Made by a program: the position numbers and the translations under genes. The notes below the pieces were generated by a model, which saw only the letters and a program-made list of their open reading frames with translations, was not told the DNA's origin and searched no databases. DNA of 64,000 nucleotides from Patescibacteria group bacterium (GTDB lineage: Bacteria; Patescibacteriota; Patescibacteriia; Veblenbacterales; UBA10138): contig JAHITT010000004.1 of the NCBI GenBank assembly GCA_018817715.1, forward strand, positions 125,784 through 189,783, read 5' to 3'. This document shows positions 14,101 through 29,989 of this stretch, in pieces. Position 1 is the stretch's first letter. Each line of letters begins with the position of its first letter.

Positions 14101-15453
14101 TTATAACCAATCCATTACCTCAAACAAATTGCCAACCACGGAAATTTCTAATACCTTGGGAAACTTTATATTATTAGGCAATTTTGAACAAAGAACTTGT
14201 TTAAAACCCAAACGAGCGCTCTCCTGTAATCTTTTAGGCATATTATTAACTGCTCTTATTTCCCCGCCTAAACCCACCTCGCCAAAAACCACTAAATCTT
14301 TAGCCAGTGGTTTTTTTTGCCGAGCTGATATAACAGCTAAACAAACCGCTAAATCCAAAGCTGGTTCTCGACTTTTTAAACCTCCAGCTAAATTAACATA
14401 AACATCATTATAACCAAATTTAAGACCAACTTTTTCTTCTAAAACAGCTATTAACAATTGTAAACGGGCACTATCATAACCAGTTGTAGCTCTTTTGGGG
14501 TAATTCAATTTAGTTACTCTAGTCACCAAAGCTTGCACTTCCACCAACAAACTGCGCGAACCTTGCTGCAGGGCTGTAATACAAGAACCAGCACCAGCGT
14601 GCCGATCGTCTAAAAATAAAGCTGAGGGATTGTTTACTTCTATTAAGCCTCCTTCCTCCATTTGAAAAACCCCTACTTCATCAGTGGAACCAAATCTATT
14701 TTTAGTCGCCCGTAAAATTTTAACCGACTGCTTATCTAAACTTTCTAAACTTAACACCACATCTACCAAATGCTCAATTGTTTTAGGCCCAGCCGCCTGG
14801 CCAGATTTTATAACATGACCAATTACCATAACAGCTGTTTTGGTTTCCTTGGCCAAAGCTACTAAATCACTCAAAATACTTTTTAATTGATTAGGCGAAC
14901 TGGAACCGACTAATGAATCCTCCGAAACCACCGTTTGTAAAGAATCTATTATTAATAATTTTACAGAATTTTGCCGAACCGCTTGGGCAATAGCCTGAAT
15001 ATTTGTTTCTGCAGTAAAACCTAATTTATCACCTTTAACTTTAAGCCGCCTAGCTCTTTGCTCAATTTGTTCTAAAGCTTCTTCGCCCGAAGCATATAAA
15101 ACTGGTTGGCTACAACTATCAGCCAAAGCTAAAAGTAGAGTAGATTTACCCGCTCCCGGCTCACCAGTTAATAAAGTAACTCCTCCTTCCACTAAACCAC
15201 CACCTAAAACTCTATCCACTTCATTTAAACCAGAAACAAAACGCTTTAAAGATAAATTGCTACCAAGTCTTAAAGAAGTTACGCCGGCCGCTTTGGTTGT
15301 TTTAAGAGAGGAAATTGATTGAGATTTAATTATGGTTTCTGGTTGGCTGGCAATGGTACCGAACTGGCCACATTCAGAACAACGGCCCAACCAGGTAGCC
15401 TGTTGGGCATCACAATTAGAACAAGTATAAATAATCGTTGTTTTAGCCGCCAT
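14101..15453 (-). CDS. radA: DNA repair protein RadA/Sms.
   Basis: It has an N-terminal C4 zinc finger (CSNCDAQ...CSECGQ), a Walker A motif GEPGAGKST, a RecA-like core and a Lon-protease-like C-terminal domain. Confidence 0.9.
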   Translation of the reverse strand: MAAKTTIIYTCSNCDAQQATWLGRCSECGQFGTIASQPETIIKSQSISSLKTTKAAGVTSLRLGSNLSLKRFVSGLNEVDRVLGGGLVEGGVTLLTGEPGAGKSTLLLALADSCSQPVLYASGEEALEQIEQRARRLKVKGDKLGFTAETNIQAIAQAVRQNSVKLLIIDSLQTVVSEDSLVGSSSPNQLKSILSDLVALAKETKTAVMVIGHVIKSGQAAGPKTIEHLVDVVLSLESLDKQSVKILRATKNRFGSTDEVGVFQMEEGGLIEVNNPSALFLDDRHAGAGSCITALQQGSRSLLVEVQALVTRVTKLNYPKRATTGYDSARLQLLIAVLEEKVGLKFGYNDVYVNLAGGLKSREPALDLAVCLAVISARQKKPLAKDLVVFGEVGLGGEIRAVNNMPKRLQESARLGFKQVLCSKLPNNIKFPKVLEISVVGNLFEVMDWL

Positions 15454-15462
15454 TTATTTAAA

Positions 15463-16953
15463 TTATGTACATTTATCACTGCCAGCTGGTTTATCTTTAC
15501 CAGCCTGCCAGCGGGCTGTACCCCATTCAAAATGCCACCATTCACCACAATATCTAACCCAACCAACTTCTGACATAACTTGCTGTAATAAAGATATATC
15601 AGTCCAAACATCATTGGGTACTAAATTAATAGACGGCCGGGCAAAAGCCGAACTAATATAAGGACAACTTTGTCCTTGCAGACAAACATCCACTGCCCCG
15701 CCGGTTAAATGAGGTGCGGCACAACTAGGATAGGCCACAAAACTTCGAACCTTATCCGCACCATGTTTAGCTATACCTTCATTAAACAGTTTAGTTTGCG
15801 TAGCCAAACTTCGATGTGCTGAATTGATTTGTAAGGTTTTATTATATTGTGTTTTTAATATGTTTTGTACTTCCAATAATTTTTGATAAGCCTCCTTATT
15901 AAGCCTAGGGTCGCTGGCATAAACCGCGCCAAATTTTTTGGTTTCTATAGCTGTTAAATTATCTTCATTGGCGCATTTATTTTGATTGCTTGCCGCCGCA
16001 TCACTGTCTGAACCAGTTTTGGCTATAATAGTATCCTCTCTGGTAATTGTTTCCAATTTTAAATCCTTAAATTCAACCAAAGCCGGATTAATTAATTGCA
16101 GTAAAGAATAAGACATTAAAGCAATTACTAAACCAACAATAGCGCTAATAATAGTAGAATTGGCGTTTTTGATAGTTTCGGCGCTACCAGCCGCGGCAAT
16201 ACGTTTAAAACCGCCCCACATTATCATAACCACGGCTATAACAGCTATTAAACCAGTAAAAAATTTATAAAAATCCGCTATATATTGACCTAAAGTATTC
16301 CCTGTTACTACCACAGGTTTACCAGCAGTAAAAATCGTACCCGGTATAGTAACTTGCGGAACGAATTCTGTTGTTTTAGATTCTTGGCTTTGGTTTTGTG
16401 TAGTATTATAACTGTCAGCTGGCATCACACAACCTAATTGCAACACTACTCCATTATCACCATATATCTCTTGACAAGTAGATGGACTACAACAATTTAA
16501 ATTACTACAAGCCGCCCCAACTAGACCTAACAATCCCTCCCAAAGTGACGGAGATTTAAATTCTCCAGGACTTACACAATCAATATTAGTACTAACAGCT
16601 GTAGCATCCGGCACTGTTTCATTAAAAGTATTAAAACTAACACATTTATAAACTTTGGAACCCTGACCTATGTCTTTTTGGCAACAAGCTTTACCAGAGA
16701 TAGCTGAAATAGAACAACCATTACAGTCTACGGCATTAGCCGAACCATAACCACAAACATCTACACCAGCTTCATTTTTTTGACAAGCCGAGGTAACAGG
16801 TGAGCTAAAACCTAGTTCATAACCTTCTGCCTGACAAGCCTGAACAGCTTTAGAAGTCGGATCCGATTGAGCTAAAACAAAAGTCGGCCAAGCAACTAAC
16901 CAACTGACAATCAATAATAAATAAACAACTTTCTGTTTCATATTAATAACCAC
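15463..16953 (-). CDS. Secreted Cys-rich protein with an internal two-helix membrane hairpin (VirB2/TrbC-pilin-like) and a C-terminal LAS/M15 (VanY-type) peptidoglycan peptidase domain. It is a candidate T4SS-associated cell-wall hydrolase.
   Basis: It has a signal peptide and an N-terminal region with many Cys. The hairpin reads FYKFFTGLIAVIAVVMIMWGGFKRIAAAGSAETIKNANSTIISAIVGLVIALMSYSLLQLI. The C-terminal domain contains SAHRSLATQ...AYPSCAAPHLTGGAVDV, matching the SxHxxGxAxD motif of M15 peptidases. Confidence 0.6.
   Translation of the reverse strand: MVINMKQKVVYLLLIVSWLVAWPTFVLAQSDPTSKAVQACQAEGYELGFSSPVTSACQKNEAGVDVCGYGSANAVDCNGCSISAISGKACCQKDIGQGSKVYKCVSFNTFNETVPDATAVSTNIDCVSPGEFKSPSLWEGLLGLVGAACSNLNCCSPSTCQEIYGDNGVVLQLGCVMPADSYNTTQNQSQESKTTEFVPQVTIPGTIFTAGKPVVVTGNTLGQYIADFYKFFTGLIAVIAVVMIMWGGFKRIAAAGSAETIKNANSTIISAIVGLVIALMSYSLLQLINPALVEFKDLKLETITREDTIIAKTGSDSDAAASNQNKCANEDNLTAIETKKFGAVYASDPRLNKEAYQKLLEVQNILKTQYNKTLQINSAHRSLATQTKLFNEGIAKHGADKVRSFVAYPSCAAPHLTGGAVDVCLQGQSCPYISSAFARPSINLVPNDVWTDISLLQQVMSEVGWVRYCGEWWHFEWGTARWQAGKDKPAGSDKCT
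16096..16272. repeat. A ~177-bp segment nearly identical to 20092..20268. It is an intragenic duplication or gene-conversion tract encoding the shared membrane hairpin.
   Basis: Direct comparison by eye shows about 90% nucleotide identity (ttgcagtaaagaataagacattaaagc...ccgcggcaatacgtttaaaaccgccccacattatcataacca...). Confidence 0.7.
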
Positions 16954-17593
16954 TTAACAAATCATTTAGTTCCGTTTGTGTTAAAATGCCACTATGCACC
17001 CGACCATTAATTATATAATAAGGTGTACCATCTAAACCAACCGACCGACCTTCCATAATATTCCTTTGAATTAATGGCAAAGTTTCGTTATTACTCAAGC
17101 AAGTTAAAAATTTAGGCATATTTAATTTTAAATCATTAGCGATTGATTCATACACGAAATCACTTAAACTAGATTGATTTTGAAAAAGTTTATCATGATA
17201 ATCCCAAAATTTACCCTGCAGCGAGGCACACTGAGCCGCTTTAGCAGCCGGCAAAGACTGCTCGTGTTCGGCCAAAGGAAAATCTTTCCAAACTAAACTA
17301 ACTCTATCTTTATTTTGGGCAACCATCACAGACAATAAAACAGCCATTTGAGCACAATAAGGACAAGTAAAATCGCTAAACTGAACAATCGTTAGTTTGG
17401 CTCCATTTTTTACTCCTCTTACTGGGTCAGCTGGAAAAATAGTCACCTCACTAGGATTTTTAGGTTGAACTTTTTCTGTCGGCTGTTCCAAAACTGGATT
17501 AATTATTTTTGATTGCTCTTTTAAATTAAAAAAAATCACGACCAACAAAACCACCGCTAATAAACCAAACCAGAAAGAAATTTTTTTTAACAT
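16943..17593 (-). CDS. DsbA-family thiol:disulfide oxidoreductase, membrane-anchored.
   Basis: 216 aa with an N-terminal TM, the CxxC active site FSDFTCPYCAQM and a thioredoxin-fold length. Confidence 0.7.
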   Translation of the reverse strand: MLKKISFWFGLLAVVLLVVIFFNLKEQSKIINPVLEQPTEKVQPKNPSEVTIFPADPVRGVKNGAKLTIVQFSDFTCPYCAQMAVLLSVMVAQNKDRVSLVWKDFPLAEHEQSLPAAKAAQCASLQGKFWDYHDKLFQNQSSLSDFVYESIANDLKLNMPKFLTCLSNNETLPLIQRNIMEGRSVGLDGTPYYIINGRVHSGILTQTELNDLLSGY

Positions 17594-17644: not shown

Positions 17645-17860
17645 TTACTTATCTTTTAACATCTCTTTGTTTTTAAGCTTAATTATTATGGAGTTAAAGA
17701 TTAAGTTTAATTCCTTAGCTTCTTGCCATAATTTGCGAGCTGACCTTATTAATTGACTTATAATCGGCTTAATAACGGTATTATTAGGTAAAGTTTTAAC
17801 AAACTTTATCACAGCTATACCAAAGGCAGCTGTCCTGTTTTCTAAATCATACCTTGGCAT
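17645..17860 (-). CDS. Fragment of a four-helix-bundle protein, possibly truncated or a pseudogene.
   Basis: 71 aa. The N-terminus YDLENRTAAFGIAVIKFVKTLP resembles the four-helix-bundle (23S rRNA-IVS-type) family, but the ORF is only about half the usual length. Confidence 0.3.
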   Translation of the reverse strand: MPRYDLENRTAAFGIAVIKFVKTLPNNTVIKPIISQLIRSARKLWQEAKELNLIFNSIIIKLKNKEMLKDK

Positions 17861-17964: not shown

Positions 17965-19200
17965 CTAATTGTTCAACTTAATACTTCTTAACTGTCTAGT
18001 AGCTGAATCCGTAAAATAAAGCCACTGACCATCTTTAGAAACAGTTACCTCACCGACACTCATTCCCTCACCCCGCTCGTTTACCGGACTAGCTAAAAGA
18101 ATGGCCGAACCTGTGCCCAAATCTACTCGCCAAATATTATCTGGCTGACCTGTGGCTAATTCTGGTACCAAACCGGCTCCCTGGGGCATTTCTTGTGGAG
18201 CTGTGCAATAAGCTGCTGAACCAGTCAAGGTACACCTATCGGCCCAAGTAGCAATATTTAACTGACGTTTATTGGTTCCCACATTATCCGTACTAGCGTT
18301 TACTAACCATAAAGCTGGTTTAAAATCCGTTTTATCACTATAAACAGAATATAATAATTTTTGACCATCGGGTGACCACTTAGAATTAAAACCTCGACCA
18401 TCTACATATAAACCCTTAAAATTTTCCTGATTAAAACCAATTAATAATACTTGCTGAGAAAAGGCTGTATTATCGGTACCGGTTCTCGATAAAGCCACCA
18501 CCTGATTATTGGGCGACCAAGCAACTTCTACCTTGCTGGCGTTTTCACCCATAGGTTCTATGCCAGTTAACCCGGATCCATCGCTGTTTATTTTTACCAC
18601 CCAACGATCATTAACGCTATCAGCCAAATATTTACCGGCGATTTGGCCACTATCTGGCGAAAAAGAAAATTCAGCCATTTCTTTAGGCAAGGTATATTGT
18701 TTTTTTGATTTAAAATCATACACAATATTAGCACCATCGGGAAATTCTAAAACAGCCTTATCGCTATCTTTAGACCAAGTAACATTTTGCACGCTACAAT
18801 AATCTGTTTGATTAATCACCCTTTTAACACCACTGGCATCTATTTCATAAAATTTACAATCCTGCGGATTATAATACCTAAGGCGCCCAGAAGCTGTGTC
18901 TGGTTTAACCACTGGATCAGTCGTAACCAAAGGTAAAGCTTCGGCACCCCCTTGATCCAAACCTGTTCCTGGCCCACCTGGAGTTACTGTATCGGCTCCA
19001 GGCAAAGTACCGGTACCAGGCTCGGTTGTTGTACCGCTACCCGGTCCAGTTATGGGAAAATTAGTTTGACCGCCTGGCGTAATAACCGATGGTTGAACTT
19101 TGGGCCGCCATAATAAATACAAAAACCAAACTATTAAACCAATAGCCACAACTATTAATACACCAATCCAAAATTTTTTACTTTTTAAAAATTGCCACAT
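17965..19200 (-). CDS. Membrane-anchored beta-propeller protein, TolB/PD40-like, with a Gly/Thr/Pro-rich linker.
   Basis: 411 aa. It has an N-terminal TM (FWIGVLIVVAIGLIVWFLYLLW) and a low-complexity PGGQTNFPITGPGSGTTTEPGTG linker. Repeated blade-like segments (WSPDG.., SPDSGQ.., WSPNN..) follow. Confidence 0.5.
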   Translation of the reverse strand: MWQFLKSKKFWIGVLIVVAIGLIVWFLYLLWRPKVQPSVITPGGQTNFPITGPGSGTTTEPGTGTLPGADTVTPGGPGTGLDQGGAEALPLVTTDPVVKPDTASGRLRYYNPQDCKFYEIDASGVKRVINQTDYCSVQNVTWSKDSDKAVLEFPDGANIVYDFKSKKQYTLPKEMAEFSFSPDSGQIAGKYLADSVNDRWVVKINSDGSGLTGIEPMGENASKVEVAWSPNNQVVALSRTGTDNTAFSQQVLLIGFNQENFKGLYVDGRGFNSKWSPDGQKLLYSVYSDKTDFKPALWLVNASTDNVGTNKRQLNIATWADRCTLTGSAAYCTAPQEMPQGAGLVPELATGQPDNIWRVDLGTGSAILLASPVNERGEGMSVGEVTVSKDGQWLYFTDSATRQLRSIKLNN

Positions 19201-19206
19201 AATATT

Positions 19207-20727
19207 TTATCTATCAGGAAATTCTGTGTCTGTAATATTTAAATCGCAAGCGATTGGTTGCATTTTACCATTACTATCAAACGGCTGGAATAATTTATCA
19301 GCACTAACCTTCGTATAATCAATATCATCCGCTAATAAATCTAAAGCACAAATCGGATAGCCACTATGCCAACGCGTTACACCTATCCCGTTATTGTCCA
19401 AAATTTTCTTACTTATAGTACCACAAGTTGAAGCATCTATAGCATACCAATCATCACAACCGTCCGATTCCCTTTCCACCAACAAAGCCAAACCCTTAAC
19501 CCCGCCCGCTGCTGCACAATGATTGGTATTCTTTAAAGTCAAACCACTCCAACAACCCGTCAAAGTATAATAACCATTATTTTCCACATCCATAGTATCA
19601 CTAATAGTACCATTCGGTTTCATCATGCCACAATCAAAACCTACTTTATCACCGTTATTGCAGATTAATAAAGCATCTAACCTGTTTACTTCTATACCCA
19701 CTAACTTACCCTTTAACATATAGCTACTGCAAGCATAAGGAAAACCCTCCCGAGAAGAATTTTTAAAACAACCCTGACCTGTTTCCTGACATTCCAAACC
19801 AGTACATTCACCAGTACTCAAAACCAATTTTTTACCACAACTGCTACTAGGGGAATTTTTGCCTTGCCGTTCCACACAGGTACCATTTTTTGTTTCACCA
19901 GCCGCTGGCTTACAATCTTCATCTTTAAAACAAGGTAGTCTATCAAATGAACCACCGACACATTCATAATAAGTGTACCCGGCATTATACAAAGATTTGG
20001 CTTCTTGGTATGCAGGGCAAAAACCAAATATTTCCGGCTTAACCATTTCTATGCCCGGCAAGGTATTTTTAACCAAAGCCGGGTTAACCAGTTGCAGTAA
20101 AGAATAAGACATTAAAGCGATTACTAAACCGACAATAGCACTAATAATAGTAGAATTGGCATTCTTTATGGTTTCAGCACTACCGGCCGCGGCAATACGT
20201 TTAAAACCGCCCCACATTATCATAACCACAGCAGCTACAGCCAAAAAACCAATAAAAAATTTATAAAAGGCTGCCAAATAACCAGGAAAACCACCAGTAA
20301 TCCCTGGTCGGCAAAAACCCAAACCTTTTTGCTGACAATCTTGATCAGTAGAACAAGAAGTTGGCTCCTCGCCTAAAGTATAACTGGAACAAAATTTTTC
20401 ACTAACTCCCGGTATACCTACTTGTAAGGGTATAGAGGGGCTGGGGGCAAAACAACGAGCCGTGGCCTGACCGCCAACTTCATCACAATTTTGACAACTG
20501 ATATTAGTCGGATTAGCGGCACAACCACCCGGCAAAACAGAAGGATCTTTTTCCCATAAGCCTTTGCCCTCTTTACAATTATCTTCAAACCAACAACGTT
20601 GCTGAACAAAATCTCCAGCCGCCGCTTTGGCGCTATAACTAAAAATAAAAAATAAAACCAAACTAAAAAAGAAAAATAATAATACTTTTGATGGCTTTAT
20701 TAAAAAAAATCTTTGTAAAATAATCAT
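19207..20727 (-). CDS. Secreted Cys-rich protein with the same VirB2/TrbC-pilin-like two-helix hairpin as 15463..16953. It is a paralogue without the peptidase domain.
   Basis: It has a signal peptide (start chosen at the MIILQRFF ATG) and more than 40 Cys. The hairpin FYKFFIGFLAVAAVVMIMWGGFKRIAAAGSAETIKNANSTIISAIVGLVIALMSYSLLQLV is almost identical to the module in the 15463..16953 protein. Confidence 0.5.
   Translation of the reverse strand: MIILQRFFLIKPSKVLLFFFFSLVLFFIFSYSAKAAAGDFVQQRCWFEDNCKEGKGLWEKDPSVLPGGCAANPTNISCQNCDEVGGQATARCFAPSPSIPLQVGIPGVSEKFCSSYTLGEEPTSCSTDQDCQQKGLGFCRPGITGGFPGYLAAFYKFFIGFLAVAAVVMIMWGGFKRIAAAGSAETIKNANSTIISAIVGLVIALMSYSLLQLVNPALVKNTLPGIEMVKPEIFGFCPAYQEAKSLYNAGYTYYECVGGSFDRLPCFKDEDCKPAAGETKNGTCVERQGKNSPSSSCGKKLVLSTGECTGLECQETGQGCFKNSSREGFPYACSSYMLKGKLVGIEVNRLDALLICNNGDKVGFDCGMMKPNGTISDTMDVENNGYYTLTGCWSGLTLKNTNHCAAAGGVKGLALLVERESDGCDDWYAIDASTCGTISKKILDNNGIGVTRWHSGYPICALDLLADDIDYTKVSADKLFQPFDSNGKMQPIACDLNITDTEFPDR
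20092..20268. repeat. Second copy of the ~177-bp near-identical segment (see 16096..16272).
   Basis: About 90% nucleotide identity to 16096..16272 over the hairpin-coding region. Confidence 0.7.
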
Positions 20728-20737
20728 AAAATAAAAA

Positions 20738-21115
20738 CTACTTAGCAATTGCCTCAATTGCCGCCTCCATACCAACAAAAGGAGTTGATACTGCCTTTAA
20801 ACCAAAAGTGGACACGCACTGAAAAGTATTATCTAAACACCAAGCCGACACAATAATAACAATTAAAACCCCTAAAATCACCCAAGTTATAGGATTGCCT
20901 AATATAGAAGCCACGACACTAATTAACCAAATCATTATTCTCTTCTTAATCTTTGCCTTAATTTTCTGAACTGCTTGTGTCTTAGCTTCACCTAAAGCAG
21001 CTTGCTGGCCCAAATTTTGTGCCTGTTTTAACACTTGTTGACGCCTAGCCATTTCCAGTTGTTCCTGGTATTGTTGTTGCATTTCTTGCTCTTTTTGTTC
21101 TGGTTGGTCGGGCAT
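20738..21115 (-). CDS. Small membrane protein with an N-terminal Q/E-rich coiled coil and two C-terminal TM helices.
   Basis: 125 aa containing MIWLISVVASILGNPITWVILGVLIVIIVSAW. It lies in the cluster between the VirB4-like gene and the pilin-like gene. Confidence 0.4.
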   Translation of the reverse strand: MPDQPEQKEQEMQQQYQEQLEMARRQQVLKQAQNLGQQAALGEAKTQAVQKIKAKIKKRIMIWLISVVASILGNPITWVILGVLIVIIVSAWCLDNTFQCVSTFGLKAVSTPFVGMEAAIEAIAK

Positions 21116-21271
21116 AATTTATAAAAACCCTAATTACTAATTTCTAAATCCTAATAAAATTCAAAACCACAACTTAAATTTAATATTCTTTTATGTCATC
21201 CTGAAATTACCTGATTCTTCGTTTCGCTCCGAATGACACAATTTTTAGTTTTAATTTGTGCTTTTTATTTT

Positions 21272-21853
21272 TTACTGCCACTCGGCGCCATTTACTAACC
21301 AATCATTATTAATTAAAATCATTTTTAGTTCAATAGCTTGATATTTTATAGTTGCTTCACCATCGCGTGCTTTACTTTCCTGACGCTGAGTACTAACCAA
21401 AACTGTAGCTTGATTTGTTTGGCTAGCTAATACTTCCACTGCCAAAGCCCTAGTAGCCACACTATAAAAAACATCGGTTAACTCCTGGTTAAGCAAAGAA
21501 TTCAAATAACTTTGATAAGCTGGGGTAGTTAAATCAGCCACACTAATTAAATTGGCAAAAGGGTTGTCAGTTGAATAAGAACCAAATTTCTCAACAAATA
21601 AACGTGCCTTGGCTTGTCTGGCATACTGCTGACTATCCGCTGAACTCGTTGCCTCTAAATTATCTAAAGGTAGTTCAATTGTAGAATTATTATTAGTAAT
21701 GGCCGAAAGACTATCGTCTAACTCGGTAATTTCCTGGTTACCAGGCATTTTAGGGGACTCTTGACCCTTAAATTGCCACAAAATAGCAACCACTATTAAT
21801 AAAACAACAATTGAACTTATGATGATGATTAGGTGACGGCGAGAGAGGTACAT
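21272..21853 (-). CDS. Bitopic membrane protein with the topology of a VirB8-like protein (inference).
   Basis: 193 aa. A short cytoplasmic N-terminus and one TM (LIIIISSIVVLLIVVAILW) are followed by a ~150-aa extracytoplasmic domain. It lies immediately downstream of VirB4. Confidence 0.35.
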   Translation of the reverse strand: MYLSRRHLIIIISSIVVLLIVVAILWQFKGQESPKMPGNQEITELDDSLSAITNNNSTIELPLDNLEATSSADSQQYARQAKARLFVEKFGSYSTDNPFANLISVADLTTPAYQSYLNSLLNQELTDVFYSVATRALAVEVLASQTNQATVLVSTQRQESKARDGEATIKYQAIELKMILINNDWLVNGAEWQ

Positions 21854-21928: not shown

Positions 21929-23803
21929 CTATCCTATTTCCGGTTCTTGCAGGCTTTGTTCAAAATCTTTTTTAGCCTGCTCTATTTCCAACAATTGCCT
22001 AGGATCGGAAGTTATTAATTGATCTTCGGTATAAGAAGCCACTATTTTAATAGCGGCATGCTTAGCGCCAGCAAAAAATATTCCTTCACCCACACCACAC
22101 TCCAAAAGCAAATATTTTTCCCCTTCCGTCAATAAGAAAACAGAAGCGATTTTATCTATGGCCGCCGATGATTGTTTAAGCAGTAACTGTAAAGAAGAGT
22201 TAGTTACTATGGCCTGACCATAAGGTGAATTTAAAAAGTCATTAACATCTTGGGTAATAGTTGTAACACCCAAATAATACTTACGGCAACGTTTAACTAA
22301 AGCAAAAATAAACTTGGCGCTATCTTCGTTCTGCATTAACCACCAAGCTTCATCAATTACCAAAACTCGCTTTTTCATTTCCGAACGAACCACGTTCCAA
22401 ATATAATTAACTATGGTATAAATAGCGATCGGTCTTAACTCATCTTCCAAATCTCGGACCGAAAAAACCACCAATTGGTTCTTCATATCCACAGTGGTCG
22501 GACTATTAAATAATCCAGAAAAAGTGCCTTCGGTATATTTTTTAATTCTTAATACTAAACTTTCTCCACCTTCCATACCGGCCAAAACTTCCTGAAAATC
22601 CGACATAACTGGCGGTTCTACCTGAGATAAATCAGAAGAAATGGTAATATCTTTTTTAGCGTAAGTTTCCAGCAATGCTCGGTCTATCAAAGAATCTTCT
22701 TGATGAGTTAAATTACCCAACATTAAACGCATTAAACCTTTTAAGGTTATAACAGCCGAACGAATAATATCACCAGCCTTAACATCACCCACCGGCCGAG
22801 GTAAATCAAAAGGATTAATCTTGGCTTCAGAATTAAGAGAAATATTAACATAACTACCACCTACGGCCGCTGATAAATGTTTGTATTCCATTTCTGGGTC
22901 AATAATAATAACATCCGTGCCCATCATTAAAGAACGCAAAACTTCTAATTTAACAGCATAACTTTTACCCGCACCTGAAGTGGCAAAAACTACTGAGTTA
23001 GCGTTTTGCAAACTAAAACGATCAAATAGAATCAAAGAATTATTATGCCGATTGATGCCATATAATATACCATCGTCGCTAGTTAATTCGGCCGACATAA
23101 AAGGAAAGGATGAAGCGACCGGCGAAGAATTCATATTAAAATAAACCTGCAATTCATCCATACCCAAAGGCAAGGTTGAATTAAAACCCTGCTCCGCTTG
23201 CCACAAAGCCCGCCGAGAATAAACCAACTTAGAACCAAACAAACCTTCCACTTGTTGAGTTATTTTGTCTAACTCTTTTAGGGTAGACGCATACAAAGTT
23301 ACATATAAAGCATATTGAAAAAACCTTTCTGATCCTTGAGTCAAATTATCCCTTAATTGTTCAATATCCTGTAAAGCTGTCTCCCGAACCGGATCCCTAG
23401 GCGCTCCTTTTTCCCGATCAGCCATCATTTGCGCTTCTAGGGCACCAACTTTATTCCTAAGTTGTTTTAAAATTACTTCGGACGGTATCATATAAAAATA
23501 CATACCCACATCCAAAGTAACATTAAGATTAACTACCGGCACAAACCAACCTAAAGAAATATACCGAGGATAAGCCATTACAAAAATGGTACGTAAAAAC
23601 TGTCCGTTTAACTCTATGTGATTAGGCGTTACCTTAAAAGCTGCCGGAGCAATAAGTTCTTTTATTTTAACCGAACCCTCGCGCAATACTTTTTCCGCTT
23701 CAATCAATTCCTTTTCTGAAGATACGGTCATAGACGAACCAGCTTGTTCCAACTGCTCTTGGTCTTGTAATTCTTTTTTTGCTTGGTGTATAGAAATAGC
23801 CAT
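21929..23803 (-). CDS. Type IV secretion/conjugation ATPase of the VirB4/TrbE/CagE family.
   Basis: 624 aa with the Walker A motif FATSGAGKSYAV, which is immediately followed by the VirB4-typical IIDPEMEY (DPxGEY-like). The Walker B motif is VLVIDEAWWLM. Confidence 0.8.
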   Translation of the reverse strand: MAISIHQAKKELQDQEQLEQAGSSMTVSSEKELIEAEKVLREGSVKIKELIAPAAFKVTPNHIELNGQFLRTIFVMAYPRYISLGWFVPVVNLNVTLDVGMYFYMIPSEVILKQLRNKVGALEAQMMADREKGAPRDPVRETALQDIEQLRDNLTQGSERFFQYALYVTLYASTLKELDKITQQVEGLFGSKLVYSRRALWQAEQGFNSTLPLGMDELQVYFNMNSSPVASSFPFMSAELTSDDGILYGINRHNNSLILFDRFSLQNANSVVFATSGAGKSYAVKLEVLRSLMMGTDVIIIDPEMEYKHLSAAVGGSYVNISLNSEAKINPFDLPRPVGDVKAGDIIRSAVITLKGLMRLMLGNLTHQEDSLIDRALLETYAKKDITISSDLSQVEPPVMSDFQEVLAGMEGGESLVLRIKKYTEGTFSGLFNSPTTVDMKNQLVVFSVRDLEDELRPIAIYTIVNYIWNVVRSEMKKRVLVIDEAWWLMQNEDSAKFIFALVKRCRKYYLGVTTITQDVNDFLNSPYGQAIVTNSSLQLLLKQSSAAIDKIASVFLLTEGEKYLLLECGVGEGIFFAGAKHAAIKIVASYTEDQLITSDPRQLLEIEQAKKDFEQSLQEPEIG

Positions 23804-23841: not shown

Positions 23842-24531
23842 CTATTCTGCTTCCACTTCCAATTTATCCATATTAACCAATTTTTGCTGTTGAGATAATT
23901 CTGGATTATAACTAGTATAATAAAGTTCTACTAAGCCTTGAGTGTCCAAACGAACGCTCTTAAGTCCCAAAGAAGACAAACCACCCGACACCGAATAAAC
24001 TCTTTGCTCTAAAGATTCTAAATAATGAACAAAACGCTCCCGAGAAAGTTGGATGGATTTAGCCGCCGAAAATATTGCTACCAATCTTTGCCAAAAACCA
24101 CGACTTTTATCAGCTCCTGGATTATAAGGTACCACCACATAAAAACGCTTAGTCATAATATCCCCCAAACCAATCAACTCTTTAATATAACCAATATAAT
24201 CTGTCATTTGAACACGCAATAATTCATTAGTTTGTTGTTTTAGTAGGCCACCTAATTTGTCCAAATAACCATCAATATTTAATCGGCGAGATTGGATAAC
24301 AATTTGTAAAGGAAATTCTAAAGAATTTAAAAATTGAACATAACCTTGAATAATGGCCTCTTGCTCTTGTTCACTTTTTAAAACAAAGTTAACTGAAGAG
24401 CAAAGCAAAACCGCCCTTAAAGTACCATCTTTAAGAACAACGGCATCTTCTCTGATTTCTTGAATAGCTAAATGAGAAACCGTGGAAGCCAGTTGGGATT
24501 TTTTACCTGATAATTCTTTTTTAGTAGCCAT
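23842..24531 (-). CDS. Hypothetical soluble protein in the T4SS-like cluster.
   Basis: A 229-aa ORF tightly packed between the VirB3-like and VirB4-like genes. No motif was recognised. Confidence 0.4.
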   Translation of the reverse strand: MATKKELSGKKSQLASTVSHLAIQEIREDAVVLKDGTLRAVLLCSSVNFVLKSEQEQEAIIQGYVQFLNSLEFPLQIVIQSRRLNIDGYLDKLGGLLKQQTNELLRVQMTDYIGYIKELIGLGDIMTKRFYVVVPYNPGADKSRGFWQRLVAIFSAAKSIQLSRERFVHYLESLEQRVYSVSGGLSSLGLKSVRLDTQGLVELYYTSYNPELSQQQKLVNMDKLEVEAE

Positions 24532-24537
24532 AAATAA

Positions 24538-24981
24538 TTATTGATTAATATCTTCTTCCGGATTATAAGCCCCGCCGGTATCTACCATTAAAACTAATTC
24601 CTGTAAGCGCGACTTATTAAAAGGTTGTTTGCTGGAAAGGCTAACTTTAGCCGGCATAACCACTGGCCGACGAACAGCCTTTTTTAAATCTTCCTCATTT
24701 ATTTCTTTCCGCCATATTCTCTCTTTGGGTTGTTTAATACCTTGGAATAAATTCAATAAAAAATAATGAACGGGCATACCATTAACTTTAACAAAAGAGA
24801 AAATAATAGATAAACCAGCTGTTATAATTCCCAACAATAAAAATAAAGCAAAATCAAATAGCTTAAATTCAGCAAACACCAAAAAACCACCAATCATTAA
24901 TATAATAAATTGTCGACTGGTTATCGGACCAAAAATTTTGTCCTCAATGTCTATAAATTGTGGTACCACAAACTGTTTCAT
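24538..24981 (-). CDS. PrgI/VirB3-like small membrane protein with 2 TM helices.
   Basis: 147 aa containing FIILMIGGFLVFAEFKLFDFALFLLLGIITAGLSIIFSFV. Its size, topology and position just upstream of VirB4 match VirB3/PrgI. Confidence 0.4.
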   Translation of the reverse strand: MKQFVVPQFIDIEDKIFGPITSRQFIILMIGGFLVFAEFKLFDFALFLLLGIITAGLSIIFSFVKVNGMPVHYFLLNLFQGIKQPKERIWRKEINEEDLKKAVRRPVVMPAKVSLSSKQPFNKSRLQELVLMVDTGGAYNPEEDINQ

Positions 24982-24986
24982 AAATT

Positions 24987-26846
24987 CTAGAACCTTAATT
25001 TTTCATTAAAATCCACTACCGCCTGGAACTCTTCTTCTGTTAAATAAATTTGGCCAACCAGCGATTGCTCGGAAATAATTTGACTGATTGATTTACCATG
25101 CTCAATACTTAGACGGCCTAAATCTAAATAATTACGATAAACCTCGGAGGCCTGCCAAGAACGAATAGCTTCAATTTTTTTAGCTATGGAAGTTTCACCA
25201 ATTAATTCTATTTTAGTTTGTATCTTACGCAAAGCCTCTGTAGGCTTAACAGACAAACGCCGAAAATCCACTAAGGTCAAGGTCTTTAATTCTTCTAAAG
25301 GACCTAAAAGTCTAGACGGCGCTTTAACATCAGTAAGTTGCGGTTTAGGTTTAGTTAAAATAACTGGCTGATCGGATTTAATAGAAGAATTTTTATTACT
25401 AACCGGACTAGCCGAACCAACAGAAACGGCAGCCGACCTGGCTAATTCTTGTAAAACTTTTTGCCGATCTAACTTAACATCTTCTTTTTTAACAAATTCT
25501 ATTTTTGGTTTTACTGTAATTTCCGGCCTAACTATAGAAGCCTGAGGCGACTCCACCTTTTTAACCACAGGTAAAGCTACTGGCTTGGCTGGTAAAACTA
25601 CTGGCAATTCAGCGGCGATTAATTTATCTATCTCTTGTTTGCCAGTTGAAATTTTAGCCGGCTTATTATTTATCTTTAACGATTGACGATCAACAATTGG
25701 CGATTCAAAATCCTTTTTAGCTTTTTCGATTATACCGGCTACTTTATCGGCTACTGGTTCACTTAGACCTAACCCACCAACAGTTACCAACTTCATTAAT
25801 GATTCCTTAACCTCTACTTGATTACGCACCTCTTTAAGCCTAGAAACAAACAATAATTCAAAGCGCCGAGCATTTACTTCATCTTTAAAACTCAAATTAT
25901 TCTTAACTATTACTTCCTTAGCAAAATCCCTTAGCCTCTCTTCTAGGGGTACTTTTGGGGTCTGCTTTGTTTCGTTAGTTTGATCTCGGTATTTATCAGC
26001 TTCTTTTTCATCAGCCTCGTCAAACAAAAAAGCAGGAGCTGATGATTTTAAAACTTGAGGAGTATTAGATGTTTCTATTTTTACTTCTTTCAACTCTTTC
26101 TTAGGTAATATTTTACTTATTATAGGACCAGCATCAGCTTCTTGTATTTCTCTAACTTGACCTTTGTCTAAAATTATTTTTTTATCATTTTCTATAAAAC
26201 TACCTTTTTCTTCTAAACCTTCTGGGGTCAAAGAAGAATGCCCTAAATAATCAAACAAGACTAATAACTTTCTTACCTCCTCTTTAACAGCTGGGTCTAA
26301 TTTCTTTAAAGATTCTCTTTGGGACATATATTGCTCCCTCTTAAGAGAATCCGATATCTCCACACCAACCACTGAAATATAATCTTTAAGCCAATCACCA
26401 ACTGTACGCAAAGAACCGCTTGCTCCGTGACTTTCCACAAAAATAGCTCTACTATTAACTAAAACCTCTTTTAAATTTTTCTTTAAAATATCTCTATCTT
26501 CGTGTATTAAAATTCTTAAAAGCTTGGCTTCTAATTTAGCCAATAAATCAATTTCATTACTTCCTAATACTACTGATAAACCCTGACGAAAAAATTCTAG
26601 TACCTCATCATTATTCAAAAAAGGTAAACACTCTCCATGCAATAACCAAATAATTTTATTATAATTATTTTTGGTTAATTGATCTAACGACTTATCTTGT
26701 TCCACAGCTGATTTTATTTTTTTTAAAAATTCATAAGAGGTTCCAATATCGTCTTGGACAATCAACCAGTTAGCATAATCAGACAATCTTTCAAAAAATT
26801 GTTGGTCTCTTAAGGGAATATTCTTTATAATATTTTGTGTAACCAT
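24987..26846 (-). CDS. Hypothetical charged or coiled cytoplasmic protein in the cluster.
   Basis: A 619-aa, K/E-rich ORF with no nucleotide-binding motif seen. It is operonic with its neighbours, with gaps of 5-14 nt. Confidence 0.4.
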   Translation of the reverse strand: MVTQNIIKNIPLRDQQFFERLSDYANWLIVQDDIGTSYEFLKKIKSAVEQDKSLDQLTKNNYNKIIWLLHGECLPFLNNDEVLEFFRQGLSVVLGSNEIDLLAKLEAKLLRILIHEDRDILKKNLKEVLVNSRAIFVESHGASGSLRTVGDWLKDYISVVGVEISDSLKREQYMSQRESLKKLDPAVKEEVRKLLVLFDYLGHSSLTPEGLEEKGSFIENDKKIILDKGQVREIQEADAGPIISKILPKKELKEVKIETSNTPQVLKSSAPAFLFDEADEKEADKYRDQTNETKQTPKVPLEERLRDFAKEVIVKNNLSFKDEVNARRFELLFVSRLKEVRNQVEVKESLMKLVTVGGLGLSEPVADKVAGIIEKAKKDFESPIVDRQSLKINNKPAKISTGKQEIDKLIAAELPVVLPAKPVALPVVKKVESPQASIVRPEITVKPKIEFVKKEDVKLDRQKVLQELARSAAVSVGSASPVSNKNSSIKSDQPVILTKPKPQLTDVKAPSRLLGPLEELKTLTLVDFRRLSVKPTEALRKIQTKIELIGETSIAKKIEAIRSWQASEVYRNYLDLGRLSIEHGKSISQIISEQSLVGQIYLTEEEFQAVVDFNEKLRF

Positions 26847-26860
26847 AGTCTAGTACAGTA

Positions 26861-29800: not shown

Positions 29801-29989
29801 AATTAAAGTAACGGTTAAACCACCAATAAATTCGGCCAAAGGCAGTATTAAATTCTGTCCTAACCAGCTACCAAAATTAGCTGAGGCAGTTGTTGGCAAA
29901 AAAAGTCCTAAACCCAAAATTAAAACCAAACCCAGCAAAAAACCGGTTTTTTTTAAGCTTATTTTAGTAAAAACCTTTGCTAGGTTCAT
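26861..29989 (-). CDS. VirB6/TrbL-like polytopic membrane protein with a long C-terminal coiled-coil/charged extension.
   Basis: 1042 aa. The N-terminal ~400 aa have 7 or more TM helices, starting after an N-terminal signal-like TM. A ~350-aa coiled coil rich in E/K/Q and a ~250-aa globular C-terminus follow. Confidence 0.5.
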   Translation of the reverse strand: MNLAKVFTKISLKKTGFLLGLVLILGLGLFLPTTASANFGSWLGQNLILPLAEFIGGLTVTLIGILIGIVQYNDFINAPAVAKGWVIIRDLANMFVIVVMLVIAFATVFRIEEYQYKKLLSKLLIMSVLVNFSKMLTGFFIDFAQVVMLTFVNGFKEAAAGNLVNGFHLSEMFEFSKSKTIEGATPNENSFFVASILALISITVAMVVVAIYLVVFLVRIAFLWLLTIMSPLAFLLAAFPGQAKKYSSEWWEYFGKYLSAGPILAFFLWLALSMMQTSNNVLDSFVGQSGSDYSFKDVPGVAITGIGQSEILLSFIINIVILLGGLWMTQKLGVAGGKLAGSALAKMQSIGSSIVKSPFTVAKGVAGLAGKGAKELGSYLWSEASARLGVQGSIEKWKHGWEAGKHKREESRDTIRQSVYSKRREKGSFWQVLGSPEHLFEHQWNWRTLGKVATGHMDEVTGKKAAEHYQQQQEKLEQAKALEEQLKMRDKGGSYRGELLGGQKLFEEELKVFDDDYKMIEDGRNIKQAHVHLESLKKEMANFQGQGKVSQAMEKQEEADELSKLIDIMSTDSGKEKLLQNNRLKFSQARKKLDDINKKLLLPNSELADLKNNELKDDIDKLLIEADNLGPDKLTKQQRHSRKKEIDKLEEQKKDVIKDRENRRTQEKVKGRTPQEINELLKKDNDLLRRIDEDLKNLRRNDQLTKKEKDENIKQASILRKEAEKLQENFKSSAVGAGELDELNRQIKQLKDEAGVLGKSAEKFSPSTDYGIRRDQRLAINKEKGDMTTDNWEELFKIFEDAVHVGDSNRAAAAALKATEYGNENEFFNMYGYDSDAGGLKQFVEDIFIKKLGMAREQALSVASDIAYTGEGVQHWGVARAVNVKNGRLEWADEDERMIECLAEVRKQDFENFSRRANRLAYGREVIEYGNLPADASREEKAKYYREHRNRKFELNDFGKAYILENYSKYPDMMGRGRFNVNLATKVGSNNNLENLDNLAQKTGIIARSQYGQFKSIMGRVRNYGTGMHDEFDDIKKILKIK

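What the first reader, a model, noticed from the sequence alone, without database searches (positions are those of the whole stretch)
16096..16272. Near-identical 177-bp module shared by two different genes, suggesting gene conversion of a VirB2-like membrane hairpin.
Segments 16096..16272 and 20092..20268 are about 90% identical at nucleotide level, whereas the rest of the two genes (15463..16953 and 19207..20727) is not alignable by eye. The shared segment encodes a two-helix hairpin (FYKFF-[helix]-MIMWGGFKRIAAAGSAETIKNANSTIIS-[helix]-YSLLQL) with the topology of the VirB2/TrbC pilin. The rest of each protein is a Cys-rich extracellular domain, and one additionally carries a peptidase domain. 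Nucleotide-level conservation this far above protein-level need implies recent recombination or homogenisation between paralogues. A pilin-like hairpin embedded in a large secreted protein is atypical.
Basis: seen in the sequence. Interest (0 to 1): 0.75.

Follow-up and report, generated by a model that had tools for sequence, protein, structure and literature searches.

The report
Shared pilin hairpin kept uniform by gene conversion
Two otherwise unrelated surface-protein genes in the type IV secretion locus of an ultra-small (Patescibacteria) bacterium share a roughly 200-base membrane-hairpin segment that DNA copying between the genes repeatedly makes uniform, a pattern seen in at least 18 related genomes, which suggests (not shown) that the two proteins must fit into the same machine.

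Summary
16096..16272 and 20092..20268 are 89.3% identical. The full match is 201 nt at 88%, it is the only internal repeat in the 64-kb window, and its borders are sharp.

The segment encodes a two-helix hairpin that passes Pfam PF18895 (T4SS_pilin) in both proteins. Both genes lie in a chromosomal Patescibacteria (ABY1-type) T4SS locus. Gene A joins the hairpin to a VanY/LdcB-type cell-wall peptidase. Gene B carries Cys-rich ectodomains with no structural match.

Homogenisation is supported:
- In four syntenic genomes the flanks follow orthology, while the module follows the genome.
- Across 44 copies, 31 of 37 copies in multi-copy genomes have their nearest nucleotide neighbour in the same genome (permutation maximum 8).
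- Codon sharing exceeds expectation, and within-genome dS runs from 0 to saturation.

- The event is not recent. Core dS is 0.49 with dN of 0, so purifying selection maintains most of today's identity.
- A hairpin inside a large protein is normal for this family: about 8,400 cluster representatives, mostly 250-600 aa.

The locus and domain are published. Module-limited concerted evolution and the peptidase fusion were not mentioned in the papers I read. Novelty: new variant of a known kind. Interest: moderate.

The parts
15463..16953 (-). Gene A (496 aa from the GTG start; the database form P0001 starts at 16941, 492 aa). Layout: signal peptide, Cys-rich N-terminal ectodomain (14 Cys), T4SS_pilin hairpin, VanY/M15 peptidase.
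   Evidence: ORF. Pfam PF18895 38.3 bits and PF02557 30.3 bits, both above cut-off. AF2 model. Cys counts.
16075..16284 (-). Hairpin module of gene A (codons Y224-V293): TM helix 1, an 18-aa loop (KRIAAAGSAETIKNANST; three K/R, one E), TM helix 2. The nucleotide match to B spans 16072..16272.
   Evidence: PF18895 39.8 bits on the 70-aa segment alone; helices 214-249 and 254-284 in P0001 numbering.
16093..16236 (-). Core of the last conversion tract in gene A. It holds 7 'genome-specific' against 2 'orthology' informative sites relative to the closest relative. 47 codons are 100% identical to B at protein level (dN 0, dS 0.49).
15514..15906 (-). VanY / LAS-type zinc peptidase domain of gene A (about residues 350-480). 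Candidate Zn/catalytic residues are invariant in 16 homologues (S374, R377, H411, D418, E467, H470 in P0001 numbering).
   Evidence: Foldseek to VanXYc 4oak E 4e-7 and to LdcB 4ox3 E 3e-5.
19207..20727 (-). Gene B (506 aa, P0020, named 'pilin' by NCBI). Layout: signal peptide, Cys-rich N-terminal ectodomain (10 Cys), T4SS_pilin hairpin, beta-rich C-terminal ectodomain (18 Cys) with no structural match.
   Evidence: (PF18895 27.3 bits, cut-off 26.6).
20071..20280 (-). Hairpin module of gene B (codons Y150-V219). The nucleotide match to A spans 20068..20268 and the conversion-tract core is 20089..20232.
   Evidence: (PF18895 31.8 bits on the segment alone).
16943..17593 (-). DsbA-like thioredoxin-fold protein between A and B. 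Its presumed role is as oxidase for the disulfide-rich ectodomains. Its position is conserved in the syntenic loci.
   Evidence: Pfam PF13462 84.9 bits and PF01323 61.5 bits. Synteny. The functional link is inferred.
17965..19200 (-). PD40 / beta-propeller-like protein with an N-terminal TM segment, lying between B and DsbA. Conserved in synteny.
20738..21853 (-). Two small membrane ORFs (125 aa and 193 aa) between VirB4 and B, with no family match. Counterparts of similar size occur in the syntenic loci.
21929..23803 (-). VirB4-like T4SS ATPase.
   Evidence: Pfam PF19044 TraG P-loop 101.5 bits, AAA_10 and DUF87.
23842..24981 (-). TraC-like protein (23842..24531) and PrgI/VirB3-like protein (24538..24981).
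   Evidence: PrgI PF12666 34.8 bits. The TraC-like PF26593 assignment comes from the orthologues.
24987..29989 (-). A 619-aa protein and a 1,042-aa polytopic membrane protein, the latter a candidate VirB6/PrgH analogue (not verified). Both are conserved upstream of PrgI in the syntenic loci.
   Evidence: There is no Pfam hit, so the VirB6 assignment rests on position and TM-rich sequence only.

Best explanation
Genes A and B are two old, positionally conserved components of the chromosomal type IV secretion locus of an ABY1-type Patescibacterium. Each is a secreted, disulfide-rich protein held in the membrane by the same PF18895 'T4SS pilin' two-helix hairpin. The predicted topology is N-terminal ectodomain outside, helix 1, short positively charged cytoplasmic loop, helix 2, C-terminal ectodomain outside. 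In A the C-terminal ectodomain is a VanY/LdcB-type peptidoglycan peptidase. In B it is a beta-rich domain with no structural match.

The roughly 200-nt hairpin-coding segment is the only homologous DNA the two genes share. It undergoes episodic non-reciprocal homologous recombination (gene conversion) between the two direct copies 4 kb apart, and the non-homologous flanks delimit the tract. Between events strong purifying selection acts (omega about 0.01-0.09, against 0.12-0.26 in the flanks). The result is concerted evolution: the hairpin changes between lineages but stays nearly the same in all hairpin-bearing genes of one genome.

Inferred, not shown: the hairpin is the part that docks to or polymerises on the VirB4/VirB6-type machinery. 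All hairpin-bearing subunits would therefore have to stay mutually compatible, much as the conserved N-terminal helix is shared by major and minor type IV pilins. Convertants that restore identity would then be favoured.
For: Shown:
1. Module identity and sharp borders.
2. PF18895 above the gathering score in both proteins and on the isolated 70-aa segments. Two long helices in the AF2 models. Signal-peptide-like N-termini, a loop with three K/R and one E, and no Cys in the module against 20 and 28 Cys in the ectodomains.
3. Conserved synteny, in the order VirB6-like, PrgI, TraC-like, VirB4, two small ORFs, B, PD40, DsbA, A, RadA. This matches the published ABY1 context next to recG and radA (PMC12102498).
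4. Flanks follow orthology (A-A 26-79% aa, B-B 39-70%; all A-B comparisons 19-40%, same-genome A-B 20-29%, with no significant local match in the window). The module follows the genome: within-genome 81-88% nt, against 60-72% for the same gene in distant genomes.
5. Among 44 copies in 26 assemblies, 31 of 37 copies in multi-copy genomes have their nearest nt neighbour in the same genome (permutation mean 0.9, max 8). Restricted to same-contig pairs the count is 23 of 25.
6. In 17 of the 18 multi-copy genomes blastn finds a single A-B HSP, and it is the module (168-240 nt, same borders; 351-362 nt in L031 and L032). One genome (CAZRDN) gives no HSP at all.
7. The DNA-level signal goes beyond protein constraint. 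Same-codon use at identical residues exceeds each genome's own codon-usage expectation in all four genomes examined closely (43/57 vs 25.5; 32/52 vs 23.7; 35/59 vs 20.8; 32/55 vs 19.4). It is 0.64 pooled, against 0.38 between distant genomes.
8. Within-genome dS runs from 0.00 (L031, L032) and 0.04 (L014) through 0.3-1.0 to saturation, as expected for episodic events of different ages.
9. In the window, the central 144 nt carry 7 genome-type against 2 orthology-type informative sites, while the edges carry 2 against 20 (Fisher p = 4e-4). Reading the alignment, five of the seven lie at third codon positions.
10. Module synonymous sites are not intrinsically slow. Ortholog dS is about 1.0 in the core against 0.9-1.4 in the flanks, while A-B core dS within the window is 0.49.
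Against: - The last event in this genome is old (dS about 0.5), so most of the present identity is maintained by selection, not by ongoing exchange.
- In four genomes dS between the copies is at or near saturation although aa identity is 80-92% (JAUYKG, CAZRDN, JBMORS, CAYVOI). Protein-level co-selection alone can therefore hold the copies together for long periods. Three of these pairs lie on separate MAG contigs and could be binning mixtures.
- The module is only 66-70 codons, so individual dS values are noisy.
- The functional rationale (co-assembly or a shared docking site) is inference. No multimer model, expression data or experiment was available.
- The AF2 confidence for B's hairpin is low (pLDDT 45-65).
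Confidence: 0.8

Rival explanations
1. There is no DNA exchange. The two hairpins are ancient paralogous segments kept alike purely by protein-level co-evolution, for example because both must pack against each other or the same partner, so substitutions in one select for the same substitution in the other.
For: dN is 0 over 47 codons while dS is 0.49. Module omega is 0.013-0.09. Four genomes show near-saturated dS with 80-92% aa identity.
Against: Synonymous codon sharing is above the codon-usage expectation in all four genomes examined closely. Five of the seven genome-type informative sites in the window are third-position sites. Copies are 100% or 96% nt-identical in L031, L032 and L014. 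Within-window A-B dS is half the ortholog dS. Exact matching at dozens of residues by independent parallel substitution is implausible.
Confidence: 0.1
2. It is a simple recent tandem duplication, or a mobile or horizontally acquired cassette: the module was recently copied or inserted into both genes in this genome, rather than being a long-standing shared part that is periodically homogenised.
For: In L031 and L032 the repeat is larger (351-362 nt at 99%) and lies in adjacent overlapping genes, which could be a recent local duplication.
Against: A and B each have orthologues with the hairpin at the same place and the same synteny in genomes ranging from 38% to 58% GC. Identity does not extend beyond the module. 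No transposase or recombinase was found among the cluster ORFs scanned.
Confidence: 0.04
3. The hairpin is only a generic bitopic membrane anchor unrelated to T4SS function, for example a stop-transfer hairpin for displaying exo-enzymes, and its similarity reflects low-complexity hydrophobic composition.
Against: PF18895 is matched above its curated threshold by both copies. 106 of 109 close relatives match PF18895 and 5 also match PF04956. NCBIfam NF045849, a pilin-like conjugal transfer protein family, is the next hit. The genes sit in conserved synteny inside a VirB4/PrgI cluster. 88% nt identity over 201 nt is not a compositional effect (shuffles reach at most 41 bits against 255).
Confidence: 0.06

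Closest known systems
PF18895 T4SS_pilin proteins ('VirB2-like pilins') of the Patescibacteria T4SS (Quinonero-Coronel et al. 2025, PMC12102498; Wang et al. 2023, PMC10633639; review PMC12857230)
   Same: Same Pfam family, same chromosomal monoderm-type T4SS context (VirB4, PrgI/VirB3, no relaxase or coupling protein detected), and several pilin-domain genes per locus. The ABY1-type neighbourhood next to recG and radA matches.
   Different: Published arrays are described as sequence-divergent (mean 25%, maximum 54% aa identity over whole proteins) and 'structurally conserved but sequence-divergent'. Here the hairpins are 89-92% identical within the genome, while the rest of the two proteins shows no detectable similarity. 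The proteins are about 500 aa with large ectodomains on both sides, and one is fused to a peptidoglycan peptidase. Neither gene conversion nor this fusion turned up in term searches of PMC12102498.
Classical TrbC/VirB2/TraA conjugative pilins (PF04956)
   Same: Two hydrophobic helices joined by a short basic loop, with both termini predicted outside, encoded next to a VirB4 ATPase. 5 of 109 close relatives of the module also match PF04956.
   Different: There is no PF04956 hit for A or B even at E<=10. The proteins are four to five times larger, with the hairpin internal. The organism is a monoderm. Pilus formation is unproven.
Concerted evolution of the tandem trwL (VirB2) / trwJ (VirB5) copies in the Bartonella Trw T4SS (Nystedt et al. 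2008, Mol Biol Evol 25:287; seen only as reference 82 of PMC12102498, content recalled from memory)
   Same: T4SS pilin paralogues within one locus are homogenised by recombination while other parts diversify.
   Different: In Bartonella whole small genes are tandemly amplified paralogues. Here the exchange is confined to a roughly 200-nt module between two genes whose remaining sequence shows no detectable similarity and which have separate orthologues.
Conserved N-terminal helix of type IV pilins and minor pilins, and pilE/pilS gene conversion in Neisseria (general knowledge)
   Same: A short hydrophobic assembly helix is shared by subunits that carry different globular domains. Gene conversion acts between pilin loci.
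   Different: This is an unrelated protein family and secretion machinery. In Neisseria conversion diversifies the variable part, whereas here it homogenises the conserved part.
Monoderm T4SS cell-wall hydrolases (PrgK, TraG of pIP501, TcpG; VirB1 analogues)
   Same: A membrane-anchored peptidoglycan hydrolase encoded inside a T4SS cluster. Gene A fits this role, and about a quarter of close hairpin proteins carry VanY/M15, SLT, 3D, NlpC/P60, CHAP or C39-like domains.
   Different: The catalytic domain is a VanY/LdcB LAS metallopeptidase, not SLT or CHAP, and the anchor is a pilin-type hairpin rather than a single N-terminal TM helix. Whether the target is the cell's own wall or the host's is unknown.

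Membership tests
Pfam PF18895 T4SS_pilin | Profile match at or above the curated gathering score (26.6 bits) | tested here: met
   A scores 38.3 bits and B 27.3 bits on the whole proteins. The isolated 70-aa segments score 39.8 and 31.8 bits. B is only just above threshold.
Pfam PF18895 T4SS_pilin | Two hydrophobic helices joined by a short polar/basic loop, preceded by a secretion signal | tested here: met
   AF2 helices 214-249/254-284 in A and 146-180/187-212 in B. Kyte-Doolittle peaks at the N-terminus and at both helices, and a loop with three K/R and one E. No dedicated signal-peptide or topology predictor was available.
Pfam PF18895 T4SS_pilin | Encoded in a T4SS cluster with a VirB4-type ATPase | tested here: met
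   VirB4 lies 1.2 kb upstream of B, with PrgI and a TraC-like gene adjacent, and the same order holds in the three other syntenic loci that extend that far (L002, L003, L004); L001 is too short to include VirB4.
Classical TrbC/VirB2 pilin (PF04956) | Profile match to PF04956 | tested here: not met
   No PF04956 hit at E<=10 for either hairpin. Only 5 of 109 relatives match it.
Classical TrbC/VirB2 pilin (PF04956) | Small pre-pilin (about 100-130 aa) processed to a roughly 70-aa hairpin that polymerises into a conjugative pilus | tested here: not met
   Size is not met: the proteins are 496 and 506 aa with ectodomains of about 150-280 aa on both sides. Processing and polymerisation cannot be tested with these tools.
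Concerted evolution by gene conversion between paralogous segments | Within-genome copies are more alike than orthologous copies between genomes, while the flanks follow orthology | tested here: met
   31 of 37 and 23 of 25 nearest neighbours lie in the same genome or contig, with a permutation maximum of 8.
Concerted evolution by gene conversion between paralogous segments | Similarity at synonymous sites beyond what amino-acid constraint and codon bias explain | tested here: met
   Exceptions are the four genomes with near-saturated dS.
Concerted evolution by gene conversion between paralogous segments | A discrete tract with mosaic phylogenetic signal | tested here: met
   The centre has 7 genome-type against 2 orthology-type sites and the edges 2 against 20, p = 4e-4. 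Within the module only, the counts are 7:2 against 2:8, p = 0.023.
Concerted evolution by gene conversion between paralogous segments | Homologous-recombination machinery present, and enough uninterrupted identity to initiate exchange | tested here: inconclusive
   The longest exact run is 44 nt, and RadA and RecG flank the locus. recA was not looked for.
VanY / LAS (M15) peptidoglycan peptidase (C-terminal domain of A) | Profile match, fold, and conserved zinc/catalytic residues | tested here: met
   PF02557 scores 30.3 bits against a cut-off of 25. Foldseek gives VanXYc E 4e-7 and LdcB E 3e-5. S374, R377, H411, D418, E467 and H470 are invariant in 16 homologues. Enzyme activity is not testable here.
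   There is no [LIV]Px[TSA]G motif in A or B, the C-termini are polar, and the hydrophobic hairpin is internal.

The most novel reading that the evidence does not exclude
The identical hairpins are the polymerisation unit of a heteropolymeric T4SS filament or stalk in a monoderm epibiont. Its subunits would display large disulfide-locked ectodomains on the outside, including a VanY-type peptidoglycan peptidase aimed at the host cell wall. Gene conversion would then be the mechanism that keeps all subunits of one cell co-polymerisable while the lineage's hairpin drifts. Supporting hints are the covalent 'poly-pilin' proteins with 3-8 tandem hairpins and the recurrent fusion of the hairpin to at least six classes of cell-wall hydrolase.
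Probability: 0.15. Interest if true: 0.8.

Novelty: new variant of a known kind. Interest (0 to 1): 0.5.

Why it matters
The Patescibacteria T4SS is essential for epibiotic growth in the one species tested (PMC10633639). Its substrate, and the role of its unexpected 'pilins', are open questions (PMC12857230).

This result singles out the hairpin as the part of these proteins that must stay matched within a cell. That gives a concrete, testable handle: hairpin-swap experiments, co-purification, and multimer modelling.

It also bears on the puzzle, raised in PMC12102498, that most pilin-bearing Patescibacteria lack a VirB1 homologue. In this lineage a peptidoglycan peptidase is fused directly to a pilin hairpin, and about a quarter of close relatives carry some cell-wall hydrolase domain.

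There is a methodological point as well. Whole-protein identity (maximum 54% in published arrays) hides near-identical modules, so surveys of pilin arrays should be repeated per domain.

Tried and rejected
- **Tandem duplication with even identity.** Rejected: there is a single 201-nt HSP and no other A-B similarity.
- **Sortase/LPXTG anchor.** Rejected.
- **Further module copies.** An HMM of the module over all six-frame ORFs finds only the two.
- **PF04956 membership.** No hit.
- **Pfam and NCBIfam on the other cluster ORFs.** The small ORFs 20738..21115 and 21272..21853, the 619-aa protein and the 1,042-aa membrane protein gave no usable hits. The VirB6 label is therefore only positional.
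- **GC-biased gene conversion.** GC3 of the module is higher than the flanks (+0.086, 39 of 44 copies, p = 6.5e-9) but total GC is not. Amino-acid composition confounds the comparison, so this is left as a hint.
- **Distant-genome codon-sharing baseline.** It is confounded by GC differences of 38-58%, so I re-did the test against each genome's own codon usage.
- **MAG binning as a cause of within-genome patterns.** Addressed by repeating the test with same-contig pairs only.
- **Literature on gene conversion of Patescibacteria pilins.** Nothing found.
Full report
**1. Observation**

blastn extends the match to 201 nt at 88.1% (16072..16272 vs 20068..20268, E 5e-68). It contains a 44-nt exact run. 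It is the only internal repeat of the 64-kb window at E<=1e-5: it scores 255 bits, while shuffled windows give at most 41 bits.

Both copies are on the minus strand, 3,996 bp apart, inside ORF A (15463..16953, 496 aa) and ORF B (19207..20727, 506 aa). A codon-by-codon comparison shows very sharp borders. A Y224-V293 aligns with B Y150-V219, and nearly every codon immediately outside that range differs at two or three positions. Outside the module neither blastp nor blastn finds anything significant.

**2. What the module is**

Both proteins, and the isolated 70-aa segments, pass the Pfam gathering score of PF18895 (T4SS_pilin). A scores 38.3 and 39.8 bits, B scores 27.3 and 31.8 bits, against a cut-off of 26.6. 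The classical TrbC/VirB2 profile PF04956 is not hit even at E<=10. Five of 109 close relatives do match it. NCBIfam's 'Mbov_0395 family pilin-like conjugal transfer protein' is a sub-threshold hit.

AlphaFold2 models place two long helices exactly on the module. These are residues 214-249 and 254-284 in A (P0001 numbering) and 146-180 and 187-212 in B. Both proteins have:
- a hydrophobic N-terminal signal-like segment;
- a loop (KRIAAAGSAETIKNANST) with three K/R and one E;
- no cysteine in the module, against 14+6 (A) and 10+18 (B) cysteines in the flanking domains.

The inferred topology places both large domains outside the cell and the loop in the cytoplasm. This is the VirB2-type topology.

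A's C-terminal domain is a VanY/LAS metallopeptidase. The evidence is PF02557 above cut-off, Foldseek hits to VanXYc at E 4e-7 and to LdcB at E 3e-5, and candidate Zn and catalytic residues invariant in 16 homologues. B's ectodomains have no significant structural match. There is no LPXTG motif.

**3. Context**

The database names the source as a Patescibacteria group bacterium on a 251,903-bp contig, and calls B 'pilin'. The genes lie in one minus-strand cluster, listed here from the RadA end upstream:

| Gene | Window coordinates |
|---|---|
| RadA | 14101..15453 |
| A | 15463..16953 |
| DsbA-like | 16943..17593 |
| PD40 propeller | 17965..19200 |
| B | 19207..20727 |
| two small membrane ORFs | 20738..21853 |
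| VirB4 | 21929..23803 |
| TraC-like | 23842..24531 |
| PrgI/VirB3 | 24538..24981 |
| 619-aa protein | 24987..26846 |
| 1,042-aa polytopic protein | 26861..29989 |
| 3,475-aa Cys-rich giant | 30304..40731 |

. No relaxase or coupling-protein domain was found among the cluster ORFs scanned.

The same gene order occurs in the related contigs L002, L003 and L004; L001 (7.2 kb) carries the B-PD40-DsbA-A-RadA part. This matches the published Patescibacteria T4SS: monoderm MPF-FATA-like, usually without a relaxase, with PF18895 'VirB2-like pilins' near virB4, and in class ABY1 lying next to recG and radA (PMC12102498). The T4SS and its pilin array are essential in Southlakia epibionticum (PMC10633639; PMC12857230).

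**4. Is the module homogenised?**

*Four syntenic genomes.* Locus GC ranges from 38% to 58%. The N- and C-flanks group by orthology: A-A 26-79% aa and B-B 39-70%. All A-B flank comparisons fall at 19-40% (same-genome A-B 20-29%), and in the window no local A-B match outside the module is significant. The module groups by genome: 81-88% nt within a genome, against 60-72% for the same gene in distant genomes.

*Wider sample.* A scan of species-representative genomes gave 28 more loci. An HMM of the module finds 44 copies, and 18 genomes have two or three.
- 31 of 37 such copies have their nearest nucleotide neighbour in the same genome. Permuted labels give a mean of 0.9 and a maximum of 8 in 10,000.
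- Using same-contig pairs only, to exclude binning errors, the count is 23 of 25. The two exceptions are the pair in L001, whose nearest neighbours are the window's orthologues.
- In 17 of the 18 genomes the only blastn HSP between the paralogous genes is the module, 168-240 nt with the same borders. L031 and L032 are larger at 351-362 nt and 99% identity. CAZRDN gives no HSP.

**5. DNA exchange or protein co-selection?**

- Same-codon use at identical residues exceeds each genome's own codon-usage expectation in the four genomes examined closely: 43/57 vs 25.5, 32/52 vs 23.7, 35/59 vs 20.8 and 32/55 vs 19.4 (P from <5e-6 to 0.01).
- Pooled, the same-codon fraction is 0.64 within genomes and 0.38 between distant genomes.
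- Within-genome dS ranges from 0.00 (L031, L032) and 0.04 (L014) through 0.3-1.0 to saturation. That spread is expected from episodic conversion events of different ages.
- Comparing the window with its closest relative (L001; protein A 74% identical), the central 144 nt (A 16093..16236, B 20089..20232) carry 7 'genome' against 2 'orthology' informative sites. The edges carry 2 against 20 (Fisher p = 4e-4; module only, p = 0.023). Five of the seven genome-type sites are at third codon positions.
- Module synonymous sites are not intrinsically slow. Ortholog dS is about 1.0 in the core and 0.9-1.4 in the flanks, while A-B core dS within the window is 0.49 with dN = 0.

The last homogenisation in this lineage therefore postdates the split from the L001 lineage. 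It is nevertheless old in absolute terms. Since then purifying selection has removed every amino-acid change in 47 codons (omega 0.013 for B-B and 0.09 for A-A, against 0.12-0.26 in the flanks).

Four genomes have near-saturated dS but 80-92% aa identity. Selection on the protein alone can evidently hold the copies together for long periods. Three of those pairs are on different MAG contigs and are less reliable.

**6. How it most likely works**

*Shown:* two distinct, positionally conserved T4SS-locus genes share a pilin-type hairpin module that evolves in concert by conversion plus strong purifying selection. The tract is limited by the absence of homology in the flanks.

*Inferred:* the hairpin is the element that interacts with the T4SS membrane machinery, or packs with other hairpins. 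Mismatched hairpins would then be deleterious and convertants favoured.

Three observations are consistent with the inference:
- All three copies in L010 are homogenised.
- Single polypeptides exist that chain 3-8 hairpins with near-identical repeats (P0057, P0058).
- The same hairpin is fused to many different ectodomains. Of 109 close relatives, 106 match PF18895 and about a quarter carry a VanY/M15, SLT, 3D, NlpC/P60, CHAP or C39-like domain.

Gene A is thus a plausible functional analogue of VirB1/PrgK. This bears on the remark in PMC12102498 that most pilin-bearing Patescibacteria lack a VirB1 homologue. The DsbA gene between A and B fits the need to oxidise the Cys-rich ectodomains; that link is also inferred.

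**7.

The gene-conversion reading and the pilin-like nature of the hairpin hold, with three corrections:
- 'Recent' should read 'after the split from the nearest sampled relative, at dS about 0.5'.
- The family is PF18895, not PF04956.
- An internal hairpin in a large secreted protein is not atypical here. A phmmer search with the 70-aa hairpin finds 8,397 cluster representatives at E<=1e-3, and the best 150 are almost all 250-600 aa proteins with an internal hairpin.

**8. Novelty**

The T4SS locus, the PF18895 pilins and multi-gene pilin arrays in Patescibacteria are published. Concerted evolution of T4SS pilin paralogues has a precedent in Bartonella Trw (Nystedt 2008), which I saw only as a reference and recall from memory.

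Three things were not mentioned in the papers I searched:
- concerted evolution confined to the hairpin, between genes whose remaining sequence shows no detectable similarity;
- its generality across at least 18 genomes;
- the pilin-hairpin/peptidoglycan-peptidase fusion.

Published arrays are described as sequence-divergent (at most 54% identity over whole proteins), a measure that hides this module. I rate it a new variant of a known kind, of moderate interest (0.5). It is a clean evolutionary signal that points to the functionally critical part of an essential but poorly understood machine. It does not reveal a new kind of system.

Noticed in passing
Proteins P0057 (820 aa), P0058 (552 aa), P0059, P0087, P0155 (not in the window): Single polypeptides contain 3-8 tandem T4SS_pilin hairpins ('poly-pilins'). 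Within P0058 the repeats fall into two sets of three near-identical units, so they are internally homogenised or recently duplicated.
   Followed up: partly
L031:9832-11639 and L032:9832-11415: Two adjacent, slightly overlapping pilin-domain genes share a 351-362-nt segment at 99% nucleotide identity (hairpin 100% identical). This is a very recent conversion or a local duplication in a Saccharibacteria-labelled MAG and in a second MAG.
   Followed up: partly
window about 16339..16356 (gene A, QVTIPG) and about 20407..20424 (gene B, QVGIPG); alignments A3 and A4: A conserved 'QV.IPG' motif lies N-terminal of the hairpin in both the A and B families, at variable distance (22 aa in A, 47 aa in B, with a Cys-rich insert in B). 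I/P/G are invariant or nearly so in both alignments. It may be a processing site or the true start of the pilin domain.
   Followed up: no
window 30304..40731 (-) and 40744..41457 (-): A 3,475-aa Cys-rich secreted giant protein lies directly upstream of the T4SS genes on the same strand, followed by a bacterial TSP3-repeat protein. It is probably part of the same surface apparatus.
   Followed up: no
window 17645..17860 (-): A 71-aa ORF fills a 370-bp gap between the DsbA and PD40 genes. In L001 the two genes are only 49 bp apart, so this is a lineage-specific insertion. It has no Pfam hit.
   Followed up: partly
module copies in the window and in L001-L032: Third-position GC of the module exceeds that of the flanks of the same gene by 0.086 on average (39 of 44 copies, Wilcoxon p = 6.5e-9), while total GC does not differ. 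This is compatible with GC-biased gene conversion but is confounded by amino-acid composition.
   Followed up: partly
L007, L009, L010, L016, L017, L021, L028, L029 (record titles): Contigs that carry this Patescibacteria-type T4SS locus in full synteny are titled 'uncultured Gammaproteobacteria bacterium' in their public records. The taxonomic labels are probably wrong.
   Followed up: no
L010:8017-14955: One genome (CAYGDX) has three hairpin genes, two tandem B-like and one A-like. All are homogenised (80-90% nt), and the two tandem copies are the closest pair (dS 0.47).
   Followed up: partly
window 47312..48535 (+): A LysM + Peptidase_M23 cell-wall hydrolase is encoded 6 kb beyond the T4SS cluster. 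It is a second candidate wall-remodelling enzyme near the locus.
   Followed up: no
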